The notes below the pieces were generated by a model. It worked only from the letters and a program-made list of their open reading frames with translations. It searched no databases and was not told the origin of the DNA. A stretch of 64,000 bases of DNA from Babesia bigemina (taxonomy: Eukaryota). Numbering within the stretch: position 1 is the first letter of the stretch; every line of letters begins with the position of its first letter. Of the stretch, positions 35,093 to 44,522 are shown in pieces. The translations under genes and the position numbers were made by a program. Location: positions 2,356,001-2,420,000 of the forward strand of contig NC_027216.1 of NCBI RefSeq assembly GCF_000981445.1, read 5' to 3'.

Positions 35093-38047
35093 TCAGCCTT
35101 GGTCGGCATTTAGTAGAGCTGAGTGCAGTTTTCCATTTCTGTGCGCGGTGCTGCCTCCGAAGCACGCGGCGTAATCCAAAACGGCACTCCGAGCGGCGAT
35201 GACCGGTGCATCTACGGTAGAAGCGGCACGCTGACCACCGGCCTGGTGGACACAATGCGCAATACGCTGCATGTGTTTGCCAATACGTCGCTGGAGCATT
35301 GATGCGTCGTCCAGCACTACCAAGTGACGGTCCGCGAGTGACAGCGCAAGCTCCAGTCTCTGGGCAGTGCTGTGGCGCAATTTAGTCGTACAACATGTGC
35401 GGTTCAACACAGATGCCCCTCTTATAGTTACCGACGCGTCTTCTCGATGCCGCTTGATGCACATCGCCACATGCGCAGCATCTCCATCCGATACGCTGGC
35501 CGTGGCGGTGGCGCACAGCATGTTAAGCAATGGTGTTATATCTAGCACGGTATGACGACTAGCGAGCAGATAGGAGATGCGCTGCAGGGCCATCTCGTCC
35601 AGTGATTCACACCTTAGCGACAGGCAATCCACACACTGCCGAAGGTTCATGCTCGCACAACGGCCGCAGACATCGCCGGTAACACACAAATCCAGAACGC
35701 CTCCTAGCGCCACGTGGCTGCGCAGCACTGATAACAGCTGGTCGTGGTTCAAGTTGCGGACGACCACTGGCAATACCCTGGCCAATGCAGGCACCAACAA
35801 CGCCAGTACGACGCTGTGCTCTGTAGTCGCCTCGCACTTGTCGACCCTCGACTCTGTCGTGATAGACAACGCAGCACCATCGACTCTCTCCCTGATGACG
35901 AATGAGACACAACCGGGCACAGGGATATGACGCACTCCTTCATTAACATGCTCCCTAACCAACTCGCATAGGCAGGCGATGTCATGTGGTTGCCATTCAA
36001 CCGTATTGCTGTTGTTCTGCAATGTCTTTAGGAACGCGGATAACTGGCTCGTAGACAGCATGCCATGCTTCTGCAGCAGACTAAGAGCTCTGACTCGCCC
36101 ACCAATGCGTACTGAACCATCCCCTAAAACTATAGCGTCAGAAGTTAAAAAGCGATTCAGGACATTCTTTGTGACCCTCGCCTGCTCAGGCATTAACCTG
36201 ACCGCCACGCCGAGGTCTTTGAGTAGAGAAACAAATTTGTCCATCTGCACCATTAGGTGAATGAGGTGCCTCAACTGGGTCGGAGGCAATGTCGATTCCG
36301 AAATTCTCTGCAGCATTGCAAGAGACCACTTACTTAACGTCATCACATGATCATCGCTGCACTGGCCATTGGCAGCGGCGGAAAGAACCATGTAGTAACC
36401 AGCCTTAAGCTGCGCGACATTATGATCAATTTTAGCACATGAAATGTCGTCAAAGAATGCGGAGACGAATTTCAGCATATGTCCACGGATAGGAAACAGG
36501 TGCGTCGAGTGATGACCATCCATACAACTGATGCGATCTACATGCTTTACAAATGCGACAGCCGAATTCAATATTTTCATATGAGATACTTCCACAGCTT
36601 TAAAATCATCTGGGCAATCCTCAATCCCCCTAGCAATAGCCGACGGCCCAGCCGGGCCTGAAGTCACACTTGCGCTACACAGACGTTTCTTTAGGGCTGT
36701 CGATCGTACCACCAAGACGCTTGCCGCCTCTAACAACCGACTAAGACCCGCTACACAACCGCTAGATGCCAGTGTACTTGCAAACGATGAAACTGGCATC
36801 TTGTCGCACATGCAAGAAAGCATCTCAAAGAAACTACGAACATGGCCGAGAGTCAAGTACACGTTACCTTGCTTCGACAGAGCGCCATGCTGCGTCAGTG
36901 GTGACGCAACGTCCTTGACTTCGGTCGAAGACTGTAGTTGTGGGTGTTCGATTGAAGTCGGCTCTTCTTCGTGGTCATAGGCAAGTGGCCTTTCTGTGGC
37001 ATCTGCGTTACAATCCGCCGCATAGGAATCGTCATTTATACGTTTTGATGACGTGATATCCTTGAATTCGCCATCAGATCGGTGATTTAGCAGCATCAAC
37101 AGCCTTTTGAAAAGTTTCAGGAGTAGCTTCTCTTCAACTTTAGCAAGCCGATCCCCGTGCTTAAGAATCACGCTCATCGTGCAAAGCGTCCTTAAAAAGT
37201 CGAACGAGCATAGTTCCTGCTTTCGCGATTCCATAACCTCCATTAGAAGTTGTGCAACCTCCCTGTTGCATATTGTGGAGCTCGTGTTGAGCAGGTGCCA
37301 CAGCTTCCACACGCAATCGAGGTCTAATCCGGACGACGGAGAGTCCGCATACCAGACCGCGTGACTGCTTTCATCACCACGACCGTCAATTATATTATCC
37401 AAACTCCCTATGTGTCGTTGCGGCTCTAACTTTAGGTCGATAACTCCGCGGCGGAGCTCCCGTTTGGCCGCCGCTGCAACTTTATCAAGCAGCCCAGCTG
37501 CAATGCGTTCCACTTTTGACTTCAAAATATGGTCGTGACATCTGAATTGGCACAATCCATGCAGAATCTGGTGCGCAGTATTGAAGTCTAGCTCCCAACG
37601 TGAATTCGTAAGCTGACTAATGTGCTTGTCCAGCATTGACCACACCGTGACATCACTGCAACCCTGGCGAATTACATTGCAAACAGCAGCCTTGAAAAGT
37701 GAGTTGTCATGCAGCGTACAGTTTTCATTGCGATGCCAAAGGCGGCCCCTGTGTGCATGGAAGCCATTTAATGCGGGAGCGTTTGATCCTTCCGTACAGG
37801 GCCAGCGGCTATTCCCGGCGGTCTGCTCAGGTGAGCCACCAGGCTCCAACACATTATAACCCCCTCTACCACTAGCATCCTCCCATCTAGTTGCAACCCT
37901 AAGGAGATCTGCTCGTGACTTCGCCTCGACCAAGGCGTGTAAAACAGACACGTGACCCCTAGCCTGTGTCGAGGATTCCGCGGCTGTTGCGCTGGAGAAG
38001 GCCTTCGCAGCGCTTATCCCGGCAGACGATCGACTGCCTAATATCAT
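35093..38047 (-). CDS. Hypothetical 984-aa helical protein, possible mitochondrial leader
   Basis: Single long ORF; MILGSRSSAGISAAKAFSSATAA leader; no recognised domain. Confidence 0.8.
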   Translation of the reverse strand: MILGSRSSAGISAAKAFSSATAAESSTQARGHVSVLHALVEAKSRADLLRVATRWEDASGRGGYNVLEPGGSPEQTAGNSRWPCTEGSNAPALNGFHAHRGRLWHRNENCTLHDNSLFKAAVCNVIRQGCSDVTVWSMLDKHISQLTNSRWELDFNTAHQILHGLCQFRCHDHILKSKVERIAAGLLDKVAAAAKRELRRGVIDLKLEPQRHIGSLDNIIDGRGDESSHAVWYADSPSSGLDLDCVWKLWHLLNTSSTICNREVAQLLMEVMESRKQELCSFDFLRTLCTMSVILKHGDRLAKVEEKLLLKLFKRLLMLLNHRSDGEFKDITSSKRINDDSYAADCNADATERPLAYDHEEEPTSIEHPQLQSSTEVKDVASPLTQHGALSKQGNVYLTLGHVRSFFEMLSCMCDKMPVSSFASTLASSGCVAGLSRLLEAASVLVVRSTALKKRLCSASVTSGPAGPSAIARGIEDCPDDFKAVEVSHMKILNSAVAFVKHVDRISCMDGHHSTHLFPIRGHMLKFVSAFFDDISCAKIDHNVAQLKAGYYMVLSAAANGQCSDDHVMTLSKWSLAMLQRISESTLPPTQLRHLIHLMVQMDKFVSLLKDLGVAVRLMPEQARVTKNVLNRFLTSDAIVLGDGSVRIGGRVRALSLLQKHGMLSTSQLSAFLKTLQNNSNTVEWQPHDIACLCELVREHVNEGVRHIPVPGCVSFVIRERVDGAALSITTESRVDKCEATTEHSVVLALLVPALARVLPVVVRNLNHDQLLSVLRSHVALGGVLDLCVTGDVCGRCASMNLRQCVDCLSLRCESLDEMALQRISYLLASRHTVLDITPLLNMLCATATASVSDGDAAHVAMCIKRHREDASVTIRGASVLNRTCCTTKLRHSTAQRLELALSLADRHLVVLDDASMLQRRIGKHMQRIAHCVHQAGGQRAASTVDAPVIAARSAVLDYAACFGGSTAHRNGKLHSALLNADQG

Positions 38048-38200
38048 ATATGTGCTATAGTTTACTCATTATGTGTAAGGATGCTGCGAACAAACTCCCA
38101 GGCTTCGTATCGCAAGGATCTCTCCACACACGGCGGCCACGATCTAGACGTGCACACATCAGAATAATGTAGCTGATTTAGAATGCGTACACGTATATAG

Positions 38201-39733
38201 ATGTATGTTATTGGTTCCTGCTGCGTTGCGGCGGCCGTGATCGTGTCATCGACGCAGCTCTCTGCCGTTTACGCACGCACATCCGACGTCGGAGGCAGCC
38301 TTCCTGTTGTGACGGAGGGTTTGATCGGCTGCGCCGATGGATCTGAGGGTGTCAGATGTAGTCCTGAGTCCTCTGAGCAGCCGGGATCGTTGGAAGACCG
38401 CGGAATCACGGATGCCCCGGTGACCTTCCGCCAGGCCGACCTTCCTATGTTGTCATCGCTGATAGGTAGGTGCACAGCCTGCACTCGATATACGCGTACA
38501 GCGGCCTACGGGGGTCAGGCCATAGCGCTGAATGCAATTTTCACGGCATTGGCGCTGCTGGCACAGCGGCTGCAGGAGCTGCTTGACATCGACACGGGTG
38601 CGCTCCTCCTAGGCCGGCTAACTGGGTTGCTAACGGTGACTATCGGCGGATACGCTGCGTACAAGCTCTCCGAGCAGCTGCTGGAGCTCACGCTGGCAGC
38701 ATTGTCCTCCGGATCTGCATCGCGCACGTGTAAAGAGATCCTTGCGCACTTGCGGAGGCGCGCCAGCCGGTCAATTACGGCGCCACTTGGCGCAATCGCC
38801 GCAGTAGGACATGCAGCTCAGACGTGCACGGTGGTTCGAAGTGCCGCTAAGGGGCTGGCGCCACGCCTCACGCCACTGGCTGCAGCCATGCGTGACGTGA
38901 GCGGCGTGAGATATGCCCGCGCCGCAGTCCCGTCGTGGCTTTCGTATTCAGACACGAGTGTAAAGGAGGCCGCGGTGATAGCGGCGTACTGCATCTCGAC
39001 GTTTCTCCTCCTGGGAGGCAGGTGAGTCGAAGCCGGATGCGCGATGATAACCAGCCGCAGCCTGCACTCCTTCACGCCGAGCAACGTTACACATCCCGGT
39101 GCTTTCGCAGTGCCTAGCACGTCGCTGTCGGCTGAAGGGTACACATACGCGAACAGGAGACAGAAGCGCGTTATACAGCAGCTTGGTCGCACGTACGGCT
39201 GCCACAGCTGCGGCCGGTCCTCGGCTTCCGGCCAGTACATCGCCGACCACCAGCCGCCGTCGGGGGTTATAAAGCGCCGACTTCGGCGGCCGGTGGTGAA
39301 GTTGCTCGTCGATCACCACATAGTGCCGCTATCGTTGGTGCGGCCCAGACAGTACTTCTACCCGCAGTGCCCGGCATGCTCAGCAGAGCAGTCGAATGCG
39401 GTTCGGACGAACAGGTGAGTTTGGCGCGGTTTGTAATTTTTTTCGTGTGTAAAAACGCTGCGGTAGCCGCTACGGGCCCAGCTGCCTCCATGTGCGTCGC
39501 ACGCGGCCACGATAGGCGCGTTCTCACAGCTGCGCAGGAAGAAGGTGGTTACACACTACGGTGTATTCAGGCCGTACTACCTCTGTGCAAGCGGATATCT
39601 GGTCGGCAGGTAAAGTCTACATGTGTGGGATAGATTCCGTCGCAGGCTGCTGCTAGACACGCGTTGGCGCTTCCCGTGCCCGCCCCGGCGGAAAGCTTTG
39701 GTCAGGCCTAGCAACAGGGTAAACGGCGCTTAA
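38201..39733 (+). CDS. Signal-peptide/multi-TM protein with C-terminal CxxC..DH..CxxC (HNH-like) domain, multi-exon; 3' exons tentative
   Basis: Hydrophobic N-terminus and TM segments (38201-39021); intron 39022-39060; then PGAFA...GCHSCG...YIADHQPP...FYPQCPACS.EQ; later exon VVTHYGVFRPYYL. Confidence 0.72.
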
Positions 39734-39747
39734 AATCTTTCGCCAAA

Positions 39748-40298
39748 ATGCGCCGCCTCCCGGCCCTGTTCGCGCTGCTCTTCGCAGCCCTGCTGGGCGC
39801 CAGCGGCGATATCATCTCGGACGAGGACTGTTTCGCCGAAAGCGCCGAGCGCGCCATCGACAAACTATCGCAATCTGGAAACCCAGACTTCTTGGAGGAA
39901 GTCAAGGCCTTCAAACACAGCCCGTTTCTGCTCGCGGTGCGCTACTGCCTCGGCCCGGAGGCGTCAAATTCGAGCCAGGACTTCGTCTCCTGCATTCTGT
40001 CGTTCAGCTCATGCTCCCGCGGGGGCATGGAGGTAGTGGACTGGGAACTCTGCGCCTGTGACACCTTCTACTGCATTATGCGGGAGTGCGCTCAGCGGTG
40101 GCTGGAGGACATGGGCATCTCGGACCTTTCCGTGAGTCACCCTATGTCGTAGCTAAATGTGCGCAGTGCATCAAGCCGTGCCTCGAGAACAACTCTAACT
40201 GTATCGTGCGCCAAACCGGTGCCCTGGGCAGGTTGGCGTTACCCCCGGTGAAGGAGAGACGTGGTCCAAACCCCTATGAGACAACACCGATAACTTAA
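39748..40298 (+). CDS. Small secreted Cys-rich hypothetical protein
   Basis: Signal peptide MRRLPALFALLFAALLGASG; multiple Cys; intron 40132-40166 joins in frame to CIKPCLENNSNC...PIT*. Confidence 0.7.
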
Positions 40299-40332: not shown

Positions 40333-41297
40333 TCATTCGCACGGCACGCCGTACACTAGTTTCATTACAGTGTGGAATGCGCCTTCCTCATTAGTCTCGG
40401 CGAGTGTGTACTTGGCGAAATCCTGCACGTTCGCCTCCGCATTCTGCACGGCGAACGACAGCTCGCAGAGGCTCATCGCCTCCACGTCGTTCGTGCCGTT
40501 GCCAATGAAACCGCAATCCGCACTGGTGACCCCGTAGCTCTCCAGCAGCACCTTTAGGCCCTCAGCCTTCGTAGAAGTGCACGGAGTGACGTCCCAGGCG
40601 CCAAAAGATCCCTCCTTCAGGACATAGTCCACGTCGCACTTAACGTGAGGTTGCTGCGTGATGACCTCCTTGTGGTGAACAATCAGGAGTGATATCTTCT
40701 TCAGTAGCAGGTCGGCGGGTGTGACCACGGTGGGCGGATCGTGCATATCGACGTCCGCAAGAATCTCTTTCATGCAGCTGGAGTCGTCGCACAGCATGTA
40801 CGCTCCGTTCATGTCGCAGAACGCCACGTATTTTTCCAGCTGATGCGACACGAGGAACTCACAGAACACCGTCAGGAACTGAGCCCCGAAAACGTTCATC
40901 CGCAGCACCGCGCCCGACCCGTCGTACACCACAGCGCCGTTGTGGTACACGCCGGGGTAGCCGCGGTACCCGGTGGAGCGCACAAACTGCTCGTCCAGTA
41001 CTGCCATCGAGCTCACGTGAGGTCGGCCTGAGGCATTTGACGGACAACACGCATGTACATACCTGTACAAAAAAACACATTGAACCCGGCCTTGAGGGTG
41101 TTCGCGAAGGCGGCACGGTTCTTCCTCATTACCTCGGCCTCCGCAGACAGAAACGTGCCGTCAATGTCGACAGCGAAGAGCGCGGGCCGTGGAAGGCGGC
41201 GACCGTACGGTGATACATCGCCGACATTGCGGCACAGGTCGTTGCTTGCAACGTTCTGCAGCGGTGGAGCCACTAAACGTTGCACGGCGGTGTCCAT
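40333..41297 (-). CDS. Cof-type HAD hydrolase (HAD-3), two exons
   Basis: AVDIDGTFL, FFCTG, YPGVYHNG, TKAEG...FIGNGTNDVEAM. Confidence 0.92.
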
Positions 41298-42137
41298 TTC
41301 AACAACAGGCAGCTGTGGTCACTGCCGGCTACACTACATTCAGATGCGCTCCAAAATATGCAGGGGGAGCCCTGCAAGGCTCCGCGGTATACGTTCAGTT
41401 GGCTGTCTATTAAAATATGACATGGTGCTGGCGCAAGAATCCGCCGCCTGACAATGGAGTACGGCAGGGTCTCACACCCCCGACCTGCTCGGCCGCCCTG
41501 CCATTTCCATGCAAATTTTGGCCCTTCTGATCGCGTTCGTCCCGTTGAGTGGCCAACGGATATTTGAGTCGCTCGGATCAATGCTCCTCACATCGCGCAA
41601 ATGTACCACCGCGAACCTCGCGCCGCGACGTTGCTTTAGCAGATGCACGGTGGACCGGGTACAAATCTATACCGTATAGGCAGATCAGCGATGGTATATA
41701 ACACAAGTGTTTAGGGGTATGCGACTGACGCCATTTTGAGGGAGCCGCGTGTAGCTGGCATAGGCTGCTCATTGTGCTCGGTTGGAATTCACCCAAATTT
41801 TTTTAGCGACTAGAGGAGTTCGTGATCGGTTTAGAAAGCACTGGGTTGTCGGGTGTAACGCGGCGATTCCGTACGTTCACCGTAGGCGCCGCTGTGCCTT
41901 CGTCGATATCCGCCCGGCTGAGGTCAGGGGAATCCGTCGTTACGCAACTGTAACGCAAACCGTTTGCACTATGTACATATTAGGTTGCTTTAGCAGCTTC
42001 TGCAGTTTGTCGGTGGCGTGAGTTGACGGCGCATGTGGAAGGCTGCCGTCGCTCGGAAGCCGTTTATAGCACTGCTCGTCGTAATCACGGAATACGGTAA
42101 CACGTTGCTGTTTTGTGAAGCGGCTTAAATCTGCCGG

Positions 42138-43028
42138 CTACTCCACGTTGATTCCGTATAGGAGCTGCGCCATTTTGGCGAATGCGGCCTGGTCGTTGGT
42201 CTCCTCGAGCACGTTCTTGGCGGCGGCCTTCACGCTGTCTGACGCGTTACCCACGGCGAACGACCACTGAGAAGCCTGCAGCGCTTCCACGTCGTTAGAC
42301 CCGTCGCCGATGAACGCGAAGTTACCGCTTTCGGCCAACTCGTGACCCAGCAGCGCCCGGAGCCCCTCCAGCTTGTTCACGCGCGGCGGGTTCACGTCAG
42401 TGAGGCCGCACGTTCCGATCTTGCCCATGAAGTCAACATCGGGTACGCCAGGGATGTGGTCCCTGATGTCCTTGTACTTGGACACCATAATCTGCACGAT
42501 GTTGGACTTCAAGATATCCTCAGCAGAGACCACGTGCAGCTTGGTGTCCAGATCCCAGATTTCGCACATCTTCTGCCAGCACGCCGACTCCTCCACCAGT
42601 GCGTACATCTCCGAGGCCGACAGGAAGACCACGATGTGCTCAAGGGATCGGGATTTTACCATGGCGCAGAAGTCGCGCAAAAACGATTCGCTGAACTTCA
42701 CTTCCTTCACAAGCTCGCCGCGTTCGTTGTACACGGTGGCGCCATTTTGGTAAACACCAGGGTAACCGTTGTACACCCCGTCGGTGGACAGCTCGCCGAG
42801 CACGTACTGGGCTACGTGGAGCGGGCGGCCTGCGTAGCATTGGACGACCTTTCATTAACCCGTACCTGTGGCGAATAGCGGACGGTAGCCGCTCTCCAGA
42901 AGCTTGCGGAATGCGCGCTTGTTTTTGGTGAAATTCGCGACATCGTGGGTGTGGAACGTGTTGTCCACATCGATGCCGATGTATTTCGGAGGGTCGCTGG
43001 GAGGAACGAACGTAGATGTCGACGACAT
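42138..43028 (-). CDS. Cof-type HAD hydrolase (HAD-4), two exons
   Basis: IDVDNTFH, FATG, YPGVYQNG, FIGDGSNDVEAL. Confidence 0.92.
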
Positions 43029-44522
43029 TGTGTAGTAAGCAGGTTTTGATATGTAATGCTCGCTATGGCACGGTGGTCTACTCAGCGACTTCCTTGTGAT
43101 CAGGCACACACGAGATCCGCGCCACACCAGAAGTACGCTTCAACAAATAACCTGGTATGCGGATTCAGGCGTGTTTGTTAACGTCTGCAGTGTCAAGGTT
43201 GCATTAGATAAATTTGTCAGGGTCATGTTGATTTTTTGCACAGTACGTGTGCGCGGGTGGCTTTGATGTCTAAGTTCAGCGCAAATGTGTTTACTGGATG
43301 CATTTGAATCTAGGGAGCGCGGTGCTTAATTCGCGCAATGATCAGATTACGATGTACGTGCCAAGTGTTGGTCTGTCTTAACCATCTGTGATCTCGCATG
43401 ATGATGATGTCGCTCATGAGACTCACACATCCGTCGCATCGTAACATCTGCTGCACGGGTTTACAATGACATCTGTGGCACATAGTATAGTTAGGTATGC
43501 GTGTTAATTGATGTTCTTATTGTTTACAAGCGGCGGTCGTATGTGCAACCAAAGCCGAGCCTGAAAGGCGATAAAGTTGATGCCAGGTTGACAAACATGG
43601 TTCTTCCACATTAAAGGTGAATTTTTCATCGTCTTTCAACCAGTTGCAACACCGCTGCGACGCAATGCTTACGCGAATGCGGTACCTTCTAGGCTGGTGG
43701 CCGATGCGTCCTTCACTAGGCCTGTACAGCCACTATCCCTGCTGCTTTATGTATCCAGGGAGAATAACTGGTGTCATGTGTATCCGCGTGATCGCAAAGG
43801 TACTGGAAAACGCGGCGTTGTGATCATGCCCGGTACATGTGAAACTCCGTGGTATTCCATATGATTCAGCAACCTAGTTTTCCCCGCTGCCAGTGCAGGA
43901 CGCTGCTGCTTTCTGTACGACCTCCTTAACCGTAATATAACCCAACGCCATCACACAGGGAGGCACGTCCGCGTAAGCGTCGCAGCTGTAGATGTTAAGA
44001 AGACCCTGCGAAATGAACTCGCTGGCAGGACCGCAACAGTCGCTGGTAACGTACGCTTGCAGAAAGGATTAGGGAGACGTAGTTTTCATGTAGAAACCAC
44101 AGCTACATCCGGCTCTCAGGGTAAAACGGCACATCGTATCGCTATCATGACACAGGCTAACCTCGCAATGCCGCACAAGTCAGCCTTATAGCCAAATTAG
44201 ACAGACGCTCAGGCGACAATAGCCGGATCCGCAAGAGTGCAGCGCGAAATGACAACACAGAAACAGGAAATACATGCATTTAAACATGAATTTATAGGGG
44301 GGTCCATCATAGGTTCGAGTACGCCGGATGCCTACGTCTATATGCAAGGAAGACTACATTAGACCGTGGAAGAATGAGATGCCAGTTGAAGACATCGATC
44401 GGATACTTGCTTGCATCTAATGAAGTTGCAGAACGCGCCTCCCAGCATACCAGAGCCAAAGGCCAAAGTTACCACAAAAACTTAATCGCGCAATCCTAGA
44501 ATGCGCTTAACCGAATATCCAT

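What the first reader, a model, noticed from the sequence alone, without database searches (positions are those of the whole stretch)
39061..39415. Bacterial polymorphic-toxin-like HNH nuclease domain on a signal-peptide/TM protein
Seen: PGAFAVPS...RQKRVIQQLGRTYGCHSCG...YIADHQPP...QYFYPQCPACSAEQ, i.e. CxxC-DH-CxxC, the zinc-binding treble-clef layout of HNH endonucleases. It recalls C-terminal tips of bacterial RHS/polymorphic toxins (PGP.A...GCHTCG...DHQPP...YPQC..CS..QG, from memory). Here it follows a hydrophobic leader and several TM helices in an intron-containing gene. Inference: a domesticated bacterial or endosymbiont nuclease, membrane-tethered, possibly apicoplast-located.
Basis: partly seen in the sequence, partly recalled or inferred. 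Interest (0 to 1): 0.7.

Follow-up and report, generated by a model that had tools for sequence, protein, structure and literature searches.

The report
Ancient toxin-derived nuclease on membrane anchor
This Babesia gene carries a domain shared with bacterial competition toxins, but it belongs to an old gene family found in many eukaryotes and described in 2011-2012; it is likely a membrane-anchored DNA-cutting enzyme, though that activity is untested.

Summary
Exon 39061-39414 of Babesia bigemina BBBOND_0110840 encodes a CxxC-DH-CxxC-Q domain with true bacterial homologs. These sit at the C-terminal tips of RHS toxins, with Imm21 or Imm33-like immunity genes next door in 39 of 70 loci scanned. 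The predicted fold resembles HNH nucleases, but weakly (Z up to 4.2). This is the NGO1392-like (Tox-SuFu-Nuc) clade, which Zhang, Iyer and Aravind reported in 2011-2012 with this signature, these immunity partners and members in apicomplexans, choanoflagellates, animals, stramenopiles and green plants. It is not a Babesia- or plastid-specific capture. The hydrophobic hairpin and C-terminal tail are homologous to those of animal, oomycete and algal relatives, which points to one old acquisition. Not found in the passages I read: the conserved membrane anchor, and a signal peptide seen only in apicomplexans and Vitrella. In Plasmodium and coccidia a basic stretch follows it, so apicoplast targeting is plausible; in B. 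bigemina that stretch is acidic. Contigs from three probable RNA runs confirm two downstream introns but show the intron joining the membrane part to the domain unspliced. Nuclease activity and location are untested.

The parts
38201..38465 (+). Exon 1: start codon, predicted signal peptide (about 25 residues), acidic low-conservation stretch
   Evidence: the signal peptide is judged by hydropathy only
38466..38501 (+). Probable 36-nt in-frame GT-AG intron that the public gene model reads through
   Evidence: removing it deletes a 12-residue insert absent from B. ovata, B. bovis, B. gibsoni and T. parva; no transcript cover
38502..39021 (+). Exon 2: conserved hydrophobic helical hairpin, variable linker, third hydrophobic helix ending in GG
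   Evidence: hairpin scores 21.5 bits against a profile of 79 eukaryotic homologs (known apicomplexans removed); shuffles reach 5.7, bacteria 3.4; helices in model
39022..39060 (+). 39-nt GT-AG intron with an in-frame stop; joins the membrane part to the nuclease-like domain
   Evidence: public model and piroplasm orthologs are continuous across it; seen unspliced in contigs of X1-X3
39061..39414 (+). Exon 3 (the finding): NGO1392-like / Tox-SuFu-Nuc HNH-fold domain, CxxC-DH-CxxC-S-x-x-Q
39415..39537 (+). 123-nt intron
   Evidence: skipped in contigs of 3 of 3 runs, GT..AG
39538..39609 (+). Exon 4: eukaryote-specific tail (H...R.YH-like motif) leading into a C-terminal helix
   Evidence: 13.6 bits against the tail profile; shuffles reach 4.2, bacteria 1.0; covered in contigs
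39610..39645 (+). 36-nt intron; differs from the public gene model
   Evidence: skipped in contigs of 3 of 3 runs; the resulting frame matches B. bovis and Theileria C-termini
39646..39733 (+). Exon 5 to the stop codon; corrected protein of 432 residues

Best explanation
The exon encodes an NGO1392-like (Tox-SuFu-Nuc) HNH-fold domain within an old eukaryotic gene, and the protein is likely a membrane-anchored, metal-dependent housekeeping nuclease rather than a toxin. Shown here: homology to bacterial toxin tips, retention of the full signature, and a hairpin + helix + domain + tail architecture shared by apicomplexans, stramenopiles, green algae, choanoflagellates and animals. Inferred from HNH chemistry (established knowledge, recalled): four cysteines bind a structural zinc, the Asp of DH binds the catalytic metal, and the His activates water to nick DNA. 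Inferred from anatomy: helices on both sides hold the domain on one face of a membrane, so it would cut DNA that reaches or is tied to that membrane, most simply organelle DNA being repaired or cleared. In apicomplexans and Vitrella a gained signal peptide would route it through the ER, plausibly to the apicoplast. My odds: family identity about 0.93, active nuclease about 0.65, apicoplast location in Babesia about 0.35.
For: Signature invariant in 123 homologs. DH in 99 of 99, Q in 99 of 99 and S in 96 of 99 eukaryote-type rows, against 72, 73 and 71 of 74 bacterial ORFs. Eukaryote versus bacterial profile: probability 99.9, E 4e-32. 65 of 71 parsed bacterial copies end within 30 residues of the stop. 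Next gene is Imm21 in 20 and Imm33-like in 19 of 70. RHS repeats lie upstream in 20 of 46 scanned. A MafB + PT-HINT protein with a related tip and an Imm33-like neighbour was found (L106). Table 2 of PMC3482391 gives the same signature, partners and eukaryote list. Model pLDDT 94.5; the first 17 of 40 structural matches are HNH-type nucleases. Hairpin and tail homology. Atlas models of diatom and cnidarian clusters align over about 236 residues.
Against: Structural scores are low: best Z 4.2, under the tool's stated chance range, and Foldseek found nothing at E<=0.001. Pfam gives no hit for the exon. The residue after the last Cys is Ser, not the Asn/His usual in HNH enzymes (recalled). My paper searches found no assay of this clade. 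NGO1392 itself was not obtained; the bacterial profile found 0 of 176 genomes in the MafB-bearing family, and the L106 tip is divergent (E 5.7e-6 and 0.008 in a small search). No SuFu neighbour appeared in 70 loci. The intron joining membrane part and domain is unspliced in the contigs seen. The stretch after the signal peptide is acidic in B. bigemina. The 81-column tree cannot separate hypotheses.
Confidence: 0.62

Rival explanations
1. The domain has lost catalysis in eukaryotes and serves as a zinc-stabilised nucleic-acid- or protein-binding module on a membrane, as reported for the toxin-derived GHH domain of teneurins.
For: Ser follows the last Cys; weak structural scores; eukaryote-specific flanks and a basic insert between DH and the second CxxC could change access to the site; teneurin precedent.
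Against: DH, S and Q are the same in bacterial toxin tips that keep immunity genes, and DH is kept in 99 of 99 eukaryote-type rows; teneurins lost their catalytic residues.
Confidence: 0.2
2. It is still a weapon or a self-destruct nuclease: secreted or released from the membrane to damage host, competitor or symbiont DNA, or to destroy the cell's own DNA in programmed death.
For: Signal peptide in parasites; toxin ancestry; the CIDE/DFF40 precedent for a toxin-derived death nuclease.
Against: Slow, species-tree-like divergence among piroplasms, coccidia and animals; presence in free-living algae and invertebrates; helices on both sides of the domain; PMC3113570 argued the same from low divergence.
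Confidence: 0.08
3. The domain was captured separately by apicomplexans or Babesia, from a bacterium or through the plastid endosymbiont.
For: A tree holding piroplasms with bacteria is not rejected (p-AU 0.69); no Cryptosporidium name among the best 120 of 556 hits.
Against: The hairpin and tail of B. bigemina are homologous to those of other eukaryotes and not to the bacterial ORFs tested; plastid-free lineages carry the gene; plastid-bearing brown algae and the Ostreococcus cluster show no hydrophobic leader. Eukaryote monophyly is also not rejected (p-AU 0.59).
Confidence: 0.05
4. In B. bigemina the 39-nt intron is mostly retained, so the membrane part ends at its in-frame stop and the domain is rarely translated, or only at certain stages.
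For: One contig bridges 38975-39411 unspliced while splicing the next two introns; two others begin inside the intron; none shows the junction.
Against: Three runs of one study, contigs only, low depth upstream, RNA status guessed. The domain is intact and 93% identical in B. ovata. Transcript-derived homologs (P0020, P0189, P0201, P0054) carry helix and domain in one ORF.
Confidence: 0.05

Closest known systems
NGO1392-like / Tox-SuFu-Nuc clade of HNH/EndoVII-fold nucleases (Zhang, Iyer, Aravind 2011, PMC3113570; Zhang et al. 2012, PMC3482391)
   Same: Signature CxxC, DH, CxxC, Q; RHS and MafB/HINT carriers; Imm21 and Imm33 partners; eukaryotic members in apicomplexans, choanoflagellates, animals, stramenopiles and green plants.
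   Different: No SuFu neighbour appeared in my 70 loci. The prototype itself was not compared.
Classical zinc-binding HNH endonucleases (Gme HNH 4h9d, McrA 6ghc, GVE2 HNH 5h0o, T4 EndoVII 1e7d, ZRANB3 HNH 5mkw)
   Same: Best structural matches; CxxC..DH..CxxC layout over about 70 residues.
   Different: Z 3.1-4.2, rmsd 3.5-6.5; no Pfam HNH hit for the Babesia exon; Ser/Gln instead of Asn/His in the helix; long helical insert; membrane anchor.
Other toxin-derived eukaryotic HNH domains: CIDE/DFF40 and teneurin GHH
   Same: Bacterial polymorphic toxin tip recruited by eukaryotes.
   Different: Different HNH clades, limited to animals or to animals plus choanoflagellates; the teneurin domain is inactive and keeps its RHS stalk, whereas this family has no RHS part and keeps its signature.

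Membership tests
NGO1392-like / Tox-SuFu-Nuc | Signature CxxC, DH, CxxC, Q | tested here: met
   invariant in 123 rows; signature from Table 2 of PMC3482391
NGO1392-like / Tox-SuFu-Nuc | Bacterial homologs at C-terminal tips of RHS, MafB or HINT carriers | tested here: met
   65 of 71 within 30 residues of the stop; RHS in 20 of 46; P0154, L001; MafB+PT-HINT in L106
NGO1392-like / Tox-SuFu-Nuc | Immunity partners Imm21, Imm33 (also SuFu, Imm13, Imm38) | tested here: met
   Imm21 in 20 of 70 (19 over the cut-off), Imm33-like in 19 of 70, 2 other families, 29 without a family, no SuFu
NGO1392-like / Tox-SuFu-Nuc | Eukaryotic members in apicomplexans, choanoflagellates, animals, stramenopiles, green plants | tested here: met
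   named members
NGO1392-like / Tox-SuFu-Nuc | Direct similarity to the prototype NGO1392 | tested here: inconclusive
   prototype not obtained; a stand-in of the same architecture (L106, 1 of 34 MafB loci) matches the eukaryote profile at E 5.7e-6 in a small search; 0 of 176 genomes with the bacterial profile
HNH/EndoVII fold | beta-beta-alpha-metal fold with zinc knuckles | tested here: inconclusive
   first 17 of 40 matches are HNH-type (some assigned from recalled knowledge of Cas9, Cap5, PtuB) but Z<=4.2; Foldseek none; Atlas feature hits to HNH clusters 0.78-0.80
HNH/EndoVII fold | Metal-dependent nuclease activity that needs the DH pair | not testable with these tools
   no assay found in my searches
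Polymorphic toxin system (the Babesia gene itself) | Carrier domain upstream and adjacent immunity gene | tested here: not met
   no Pfam carrier domain in the upstream exons; next ORF has no family; further neighbours are HAD hydrolases
Apicoplast-targeted proteins | Signal peptide followed by a basic, acid-poor transit peptide | tested here: inconclusive
   B. bigemina: leader present, next 40 residues 6-7 acidic and 2 basic; Plasmodium 3-4 acidic, 6-7 basic, 11-13 N+K; Vitrella, Selenidium and Cystoisospora basic. Simple counts, no trained predictor; piroplasm rules uncertain

The most novel reading that the evidence does not exclude
An interbacterial toxin tip was fused to a membrane hairpin early in eukaryote evolution and kept as an organelle-membrane nuclease. 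Apicomplexans and their algal relatives then gave it a two-part leader and moved it to the plastid, where it is a membrane-bound nuclease for the apicoplast genome with no counterpart among my hits from their vertebrate hosts.
Probability: 0.25. Interest if true: 0.62.

Novelty: already known. Interest (0 to 1): 0.3.

Why it matters
It is a neglected one: Pfam and NCBIfam give no significant model for it, members are named 'hypothetical' or 'conserved membrane protein', and I found no experiment on it. The conserved membrane anchor argues against the soluble DNA-repair role first proposed and gives a testable question: which membrane, and which DNA. If the apicomplexan form is an apicoplast nuclease, it would be a new part of plastid genome upkeep and a possible drug target. 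No vertebrate name appeared among the named hits I saw, but I did not test absence.

Tried and rejected
Pfam, NCBIfam and PDB sequence searches gave nothing significant for the exon; PHROGs gave only E 0.03 to an HNH family. Foldseek on the domain (PDB, viral) and on the full-length B. bovis model found nothing at E<=0.001. The wide structural search of the full-length model could not be run, so the fold of the membrane part is untested. The phage collection had no tblastn match. Trees on 81 columns are unresolved; neither eukaryote monophyly nor piroplasms-with-bacteria is rejected. The first tree is the quick version with 93 rows; the second dropped tandem-domain rows, L106 and further rows to reach 50. 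No whole genome is held, so copy number and intron positions in relatives are untested. Cryptosporidium was not among the best 120 of 556 hits, which is weak evidence. Paper searches: TGME49/TGGT1_278170 gave 0 papers; other locus tags gave only unrelated listings; apicoplast+HNH+endonuclease gave 5 listings, none on this gene by listing, one checked by passage. Three toxin papers checked by passage search do not treat this clade. Earlier scan findings: none. A soluble isoform from the in-frame ATG at 39044 inside the intron was considered; that base differs in all three runs, so it is not conserved. Supplements were not seen, so the published member lists and alignments of the clade and the Toxoplasma or Plasmodium localisation and fitness tables remain unchecked.

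Full report
Observation. The window is Babesia bigemina: the exon matches BBBOND_0110840 at 100%. The exon runs 39061-39414 and encodes CxxC, DH, CxxC and a following S-x-x-Q. The pattern occurs once in the window and in 0 of 200 shuffles. Pfam and NCBIfam give no significant family for it.

Gene structure. The best model has five exons and 432 residues. Contigs from 3 of 3 probable RNA runs of one study skip 39415-39537 and 39610-39645. The second intron corrects the public model's last exon and makes the C-terminus match B. bovis and Theileria. A 36-nt in-frame intron at 38466-38501 is inferred from four orthologs. Depth upstream is low and contigs drop rare forms, so this does not show absence. 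The junction rests on canonical sites, on continuity in the piroplasm orthologs and on transcript-derived homologs that hold helix and domain in one ORF.

Bacterial homologs. A search of 1.84 billion representatives gave 643 hits at E<=0.001; the best 150 include an RHS repeat-associated protein with the domain at its tip and eCIS-core proteins with two copies. Two plasmid records match: one at the tip of a 2226-residue RHS protein followed by an Imm33-like gene, one in an RHS cassette behind a larger RHS-type gene. A genome scan with a bacterial alignment confirmed 204 of 272 candidate stretches and kept 80 from many phyla. My pattern parsed 71 of the 80, and 65 of those 71 end within 30 residues of the stop. 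The next gene, scanned in 70, is Imm21 in 20, Imm33-like in 19, another family in 2 and unassigned in 29. RHS repeats lie upstream in 20 of the 46 longer hosts scanned. Eukaryote and bacterial profiles align at probability 99.9, E 4e-32.

Fold. The domain model has pLDDT 94.5. Foldseek found nothing significant. The wide aligner's first 17 of 40 rows are HNH-type nucleases, led by Gme HNH, McrA, GVE2 HNH, T4 EndoVII and ZRANB3, but the best Z is 4.2. The agreement of the names is suggestive; the scores alone are not evidence.

What is known. Zhang, Iyer and Aravind (PMC3113570, two passages read) reported that the HNH/EndoVII nuclease of the Neisseria toxin NGO1392 occurs in animals, plants, stramenopiles and apicomplexans, judged it unlikely to be a toxin there, and suggested DNA repair. 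Zhang et al. (PMC3482391; abstract, section 21, first part of section 47 and table passages read) list the clade as NGO1392-like or Tox-SuFu-Nuc, signature CxxC, DH, CxxC, Q, with partners SuFu, Imm13, Imm21, Imm33 and Imm38; Imm21 is listed with this toxin alone. Jamet et al. (PMC4287609, two passages) identify NGO1392 as a MafB with an intein. I could not obtain NGO1392. One of 34 MafB loci fetched (L106) has MafB, PT-HINT, a CxxC-DH-CxxC-S-x-x-Q tip and an Imm33-like neighbour, and matches my eukaryote profile at E 5.7e-6 in a small search. The bacterial profile found 0 of 176 genomes in that family, so the MafB tips are a divergent branch. Membership rests on signature, partners, carriers and spread, which all agree. 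The supplements were closed and may list Babesia or the membrane helices.

Spread and age. Named homologs include piroplasms, Plasmodium, coccidia (Toxoplasma TGME49_278170), Cardiosporidium, Selenidium, Digyalum, Vitrella, oomycetes, brown algae, Ostreococcus, two choanoflagellates, a chytrid, a sponge, Trichoplax, cnidarians, echinoderms and amphioxus. The domain tree is too short to decide origin: eukaryote monophyly (p-AU 0.59) and piroplasms-with-bacteria (0.69) both pass. The flanks decide it. A profile of the hydrophobic hairpin from 79 homologs, known apicomplexans removed, scores B. bigemina at 21.5 bits, against at most 5.7 for 100 shuffles and 3.4 for 89 bacterial ORFs. The C-terminal tail scores 13.6 against 4.2 and 1.0. 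Plasmodium scored near background in both. Atlas models from diatoms and cnidarians align with B. bovis over about 236 residues. One old fusion inherited vertically is the simplest reading; the direction bacteria-to-eukaryote is taken from the papers and was not shown here.

Targeting. A hydrophobic leader is present in most piroplasm, all Plasmodium, and the Cystoisospora, Selenidium and Vitrella models, and displaced from the start in Toxoplasma and Neospora. It is not evident in Digyalum, Eimeria, stramenopiles, Ostreococcus or opisthokonts. In Plasmodium, Cystoisospora, Selenidium and Vitrella a basic stretch follows, as in plastid-targeting leaders (recalled rule). In B. bigemina the stretch is acidic. 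These are residue counts on gene models, not a trained prediction. The ancestral job cannot be plastid-specific, but a later move to the apicoplast is plausible.

Mechanism. All signature residues of the bacterial toxins are kept. Those toxins travel with immunity genes, so they are likely active, and the eukaryotic domain likely is too. The full-length B. bovis model places long helices at 77-111, 119-153 and 229-246 before the domain and 380-406 after it, which would hold the domain at one membrane face. I commit to a membrane-anchored housekeeping nuclease acting on DNA at an organelle membrane. Activity, substrate, topology and compartment are all inferred.

Verdict. Real feature and correct fold guess, but a published family with published apicomplexan members. 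Added here: the conserved membrane anchor, the leader gained in apicomplexans and Vitrella, a corrected gene model, and an unresolved question about one intron. Interest 0.3.

Noticed in passing
window 39022-39060: All three probable RNA runs carry sequence of this stop-containing intron unspliced while the next two introns are spliced; possible regulated intron retention or an internal start, or a low-depth artefact.
   Followed up: partly
window 39610-39733 and 38466-38501: The public model of BBBOND_0110840 uses a different last splice and probably reads through a 36-nt intron; the corrected stop ends 14 nt before the next gene's ATG at 39748.
   Followed up: yes
window 39748-40250, + strand: Small cysteine-rich protein with a signal peptide and no Pfam family; an intron at about 40132-40166 is spliced in contigs. 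The Babesia sp. Xinjiang model BXIN_0248 appears to fuse it to the nuclease gene, probably an annotation merge.
   Followed up: partly
window 40333-43139, - strand: Two tandem HAD-family hydrolase genes (Pfam Hydrolase_3).
   Followed up: partly
proteins P0026, P0050, P0070, P0103, P0116, P0136, P0167: A subfamily with two tandem copies of the domain, bacterial where named (P0026), some behind an eCIS core domain and one also with a GNAT domain; not mentioned in the passages read.
   Followed up: partly
protein P0154: An RHS toxin tip that is closer to eukaryote-type sequences (53% to P0015) than to the main bacterial group; a possible sister lineage of the eukaryotic family, unresolved in the tree.
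   Followed up: partly
L030, L043, L052, L061, L063, L068-L071, L075-L077, L079-L084, L088, L092, L093, L096: Downstream genes of about 120-135 residues with no Pfam family; candidate unnamed immunity proteins for this toxin.
   Followed up: no
window 35093-38065, - strand: A 990-codon open frame without a Pfam family, head to head with the nuclease gene.
   Followed up: no
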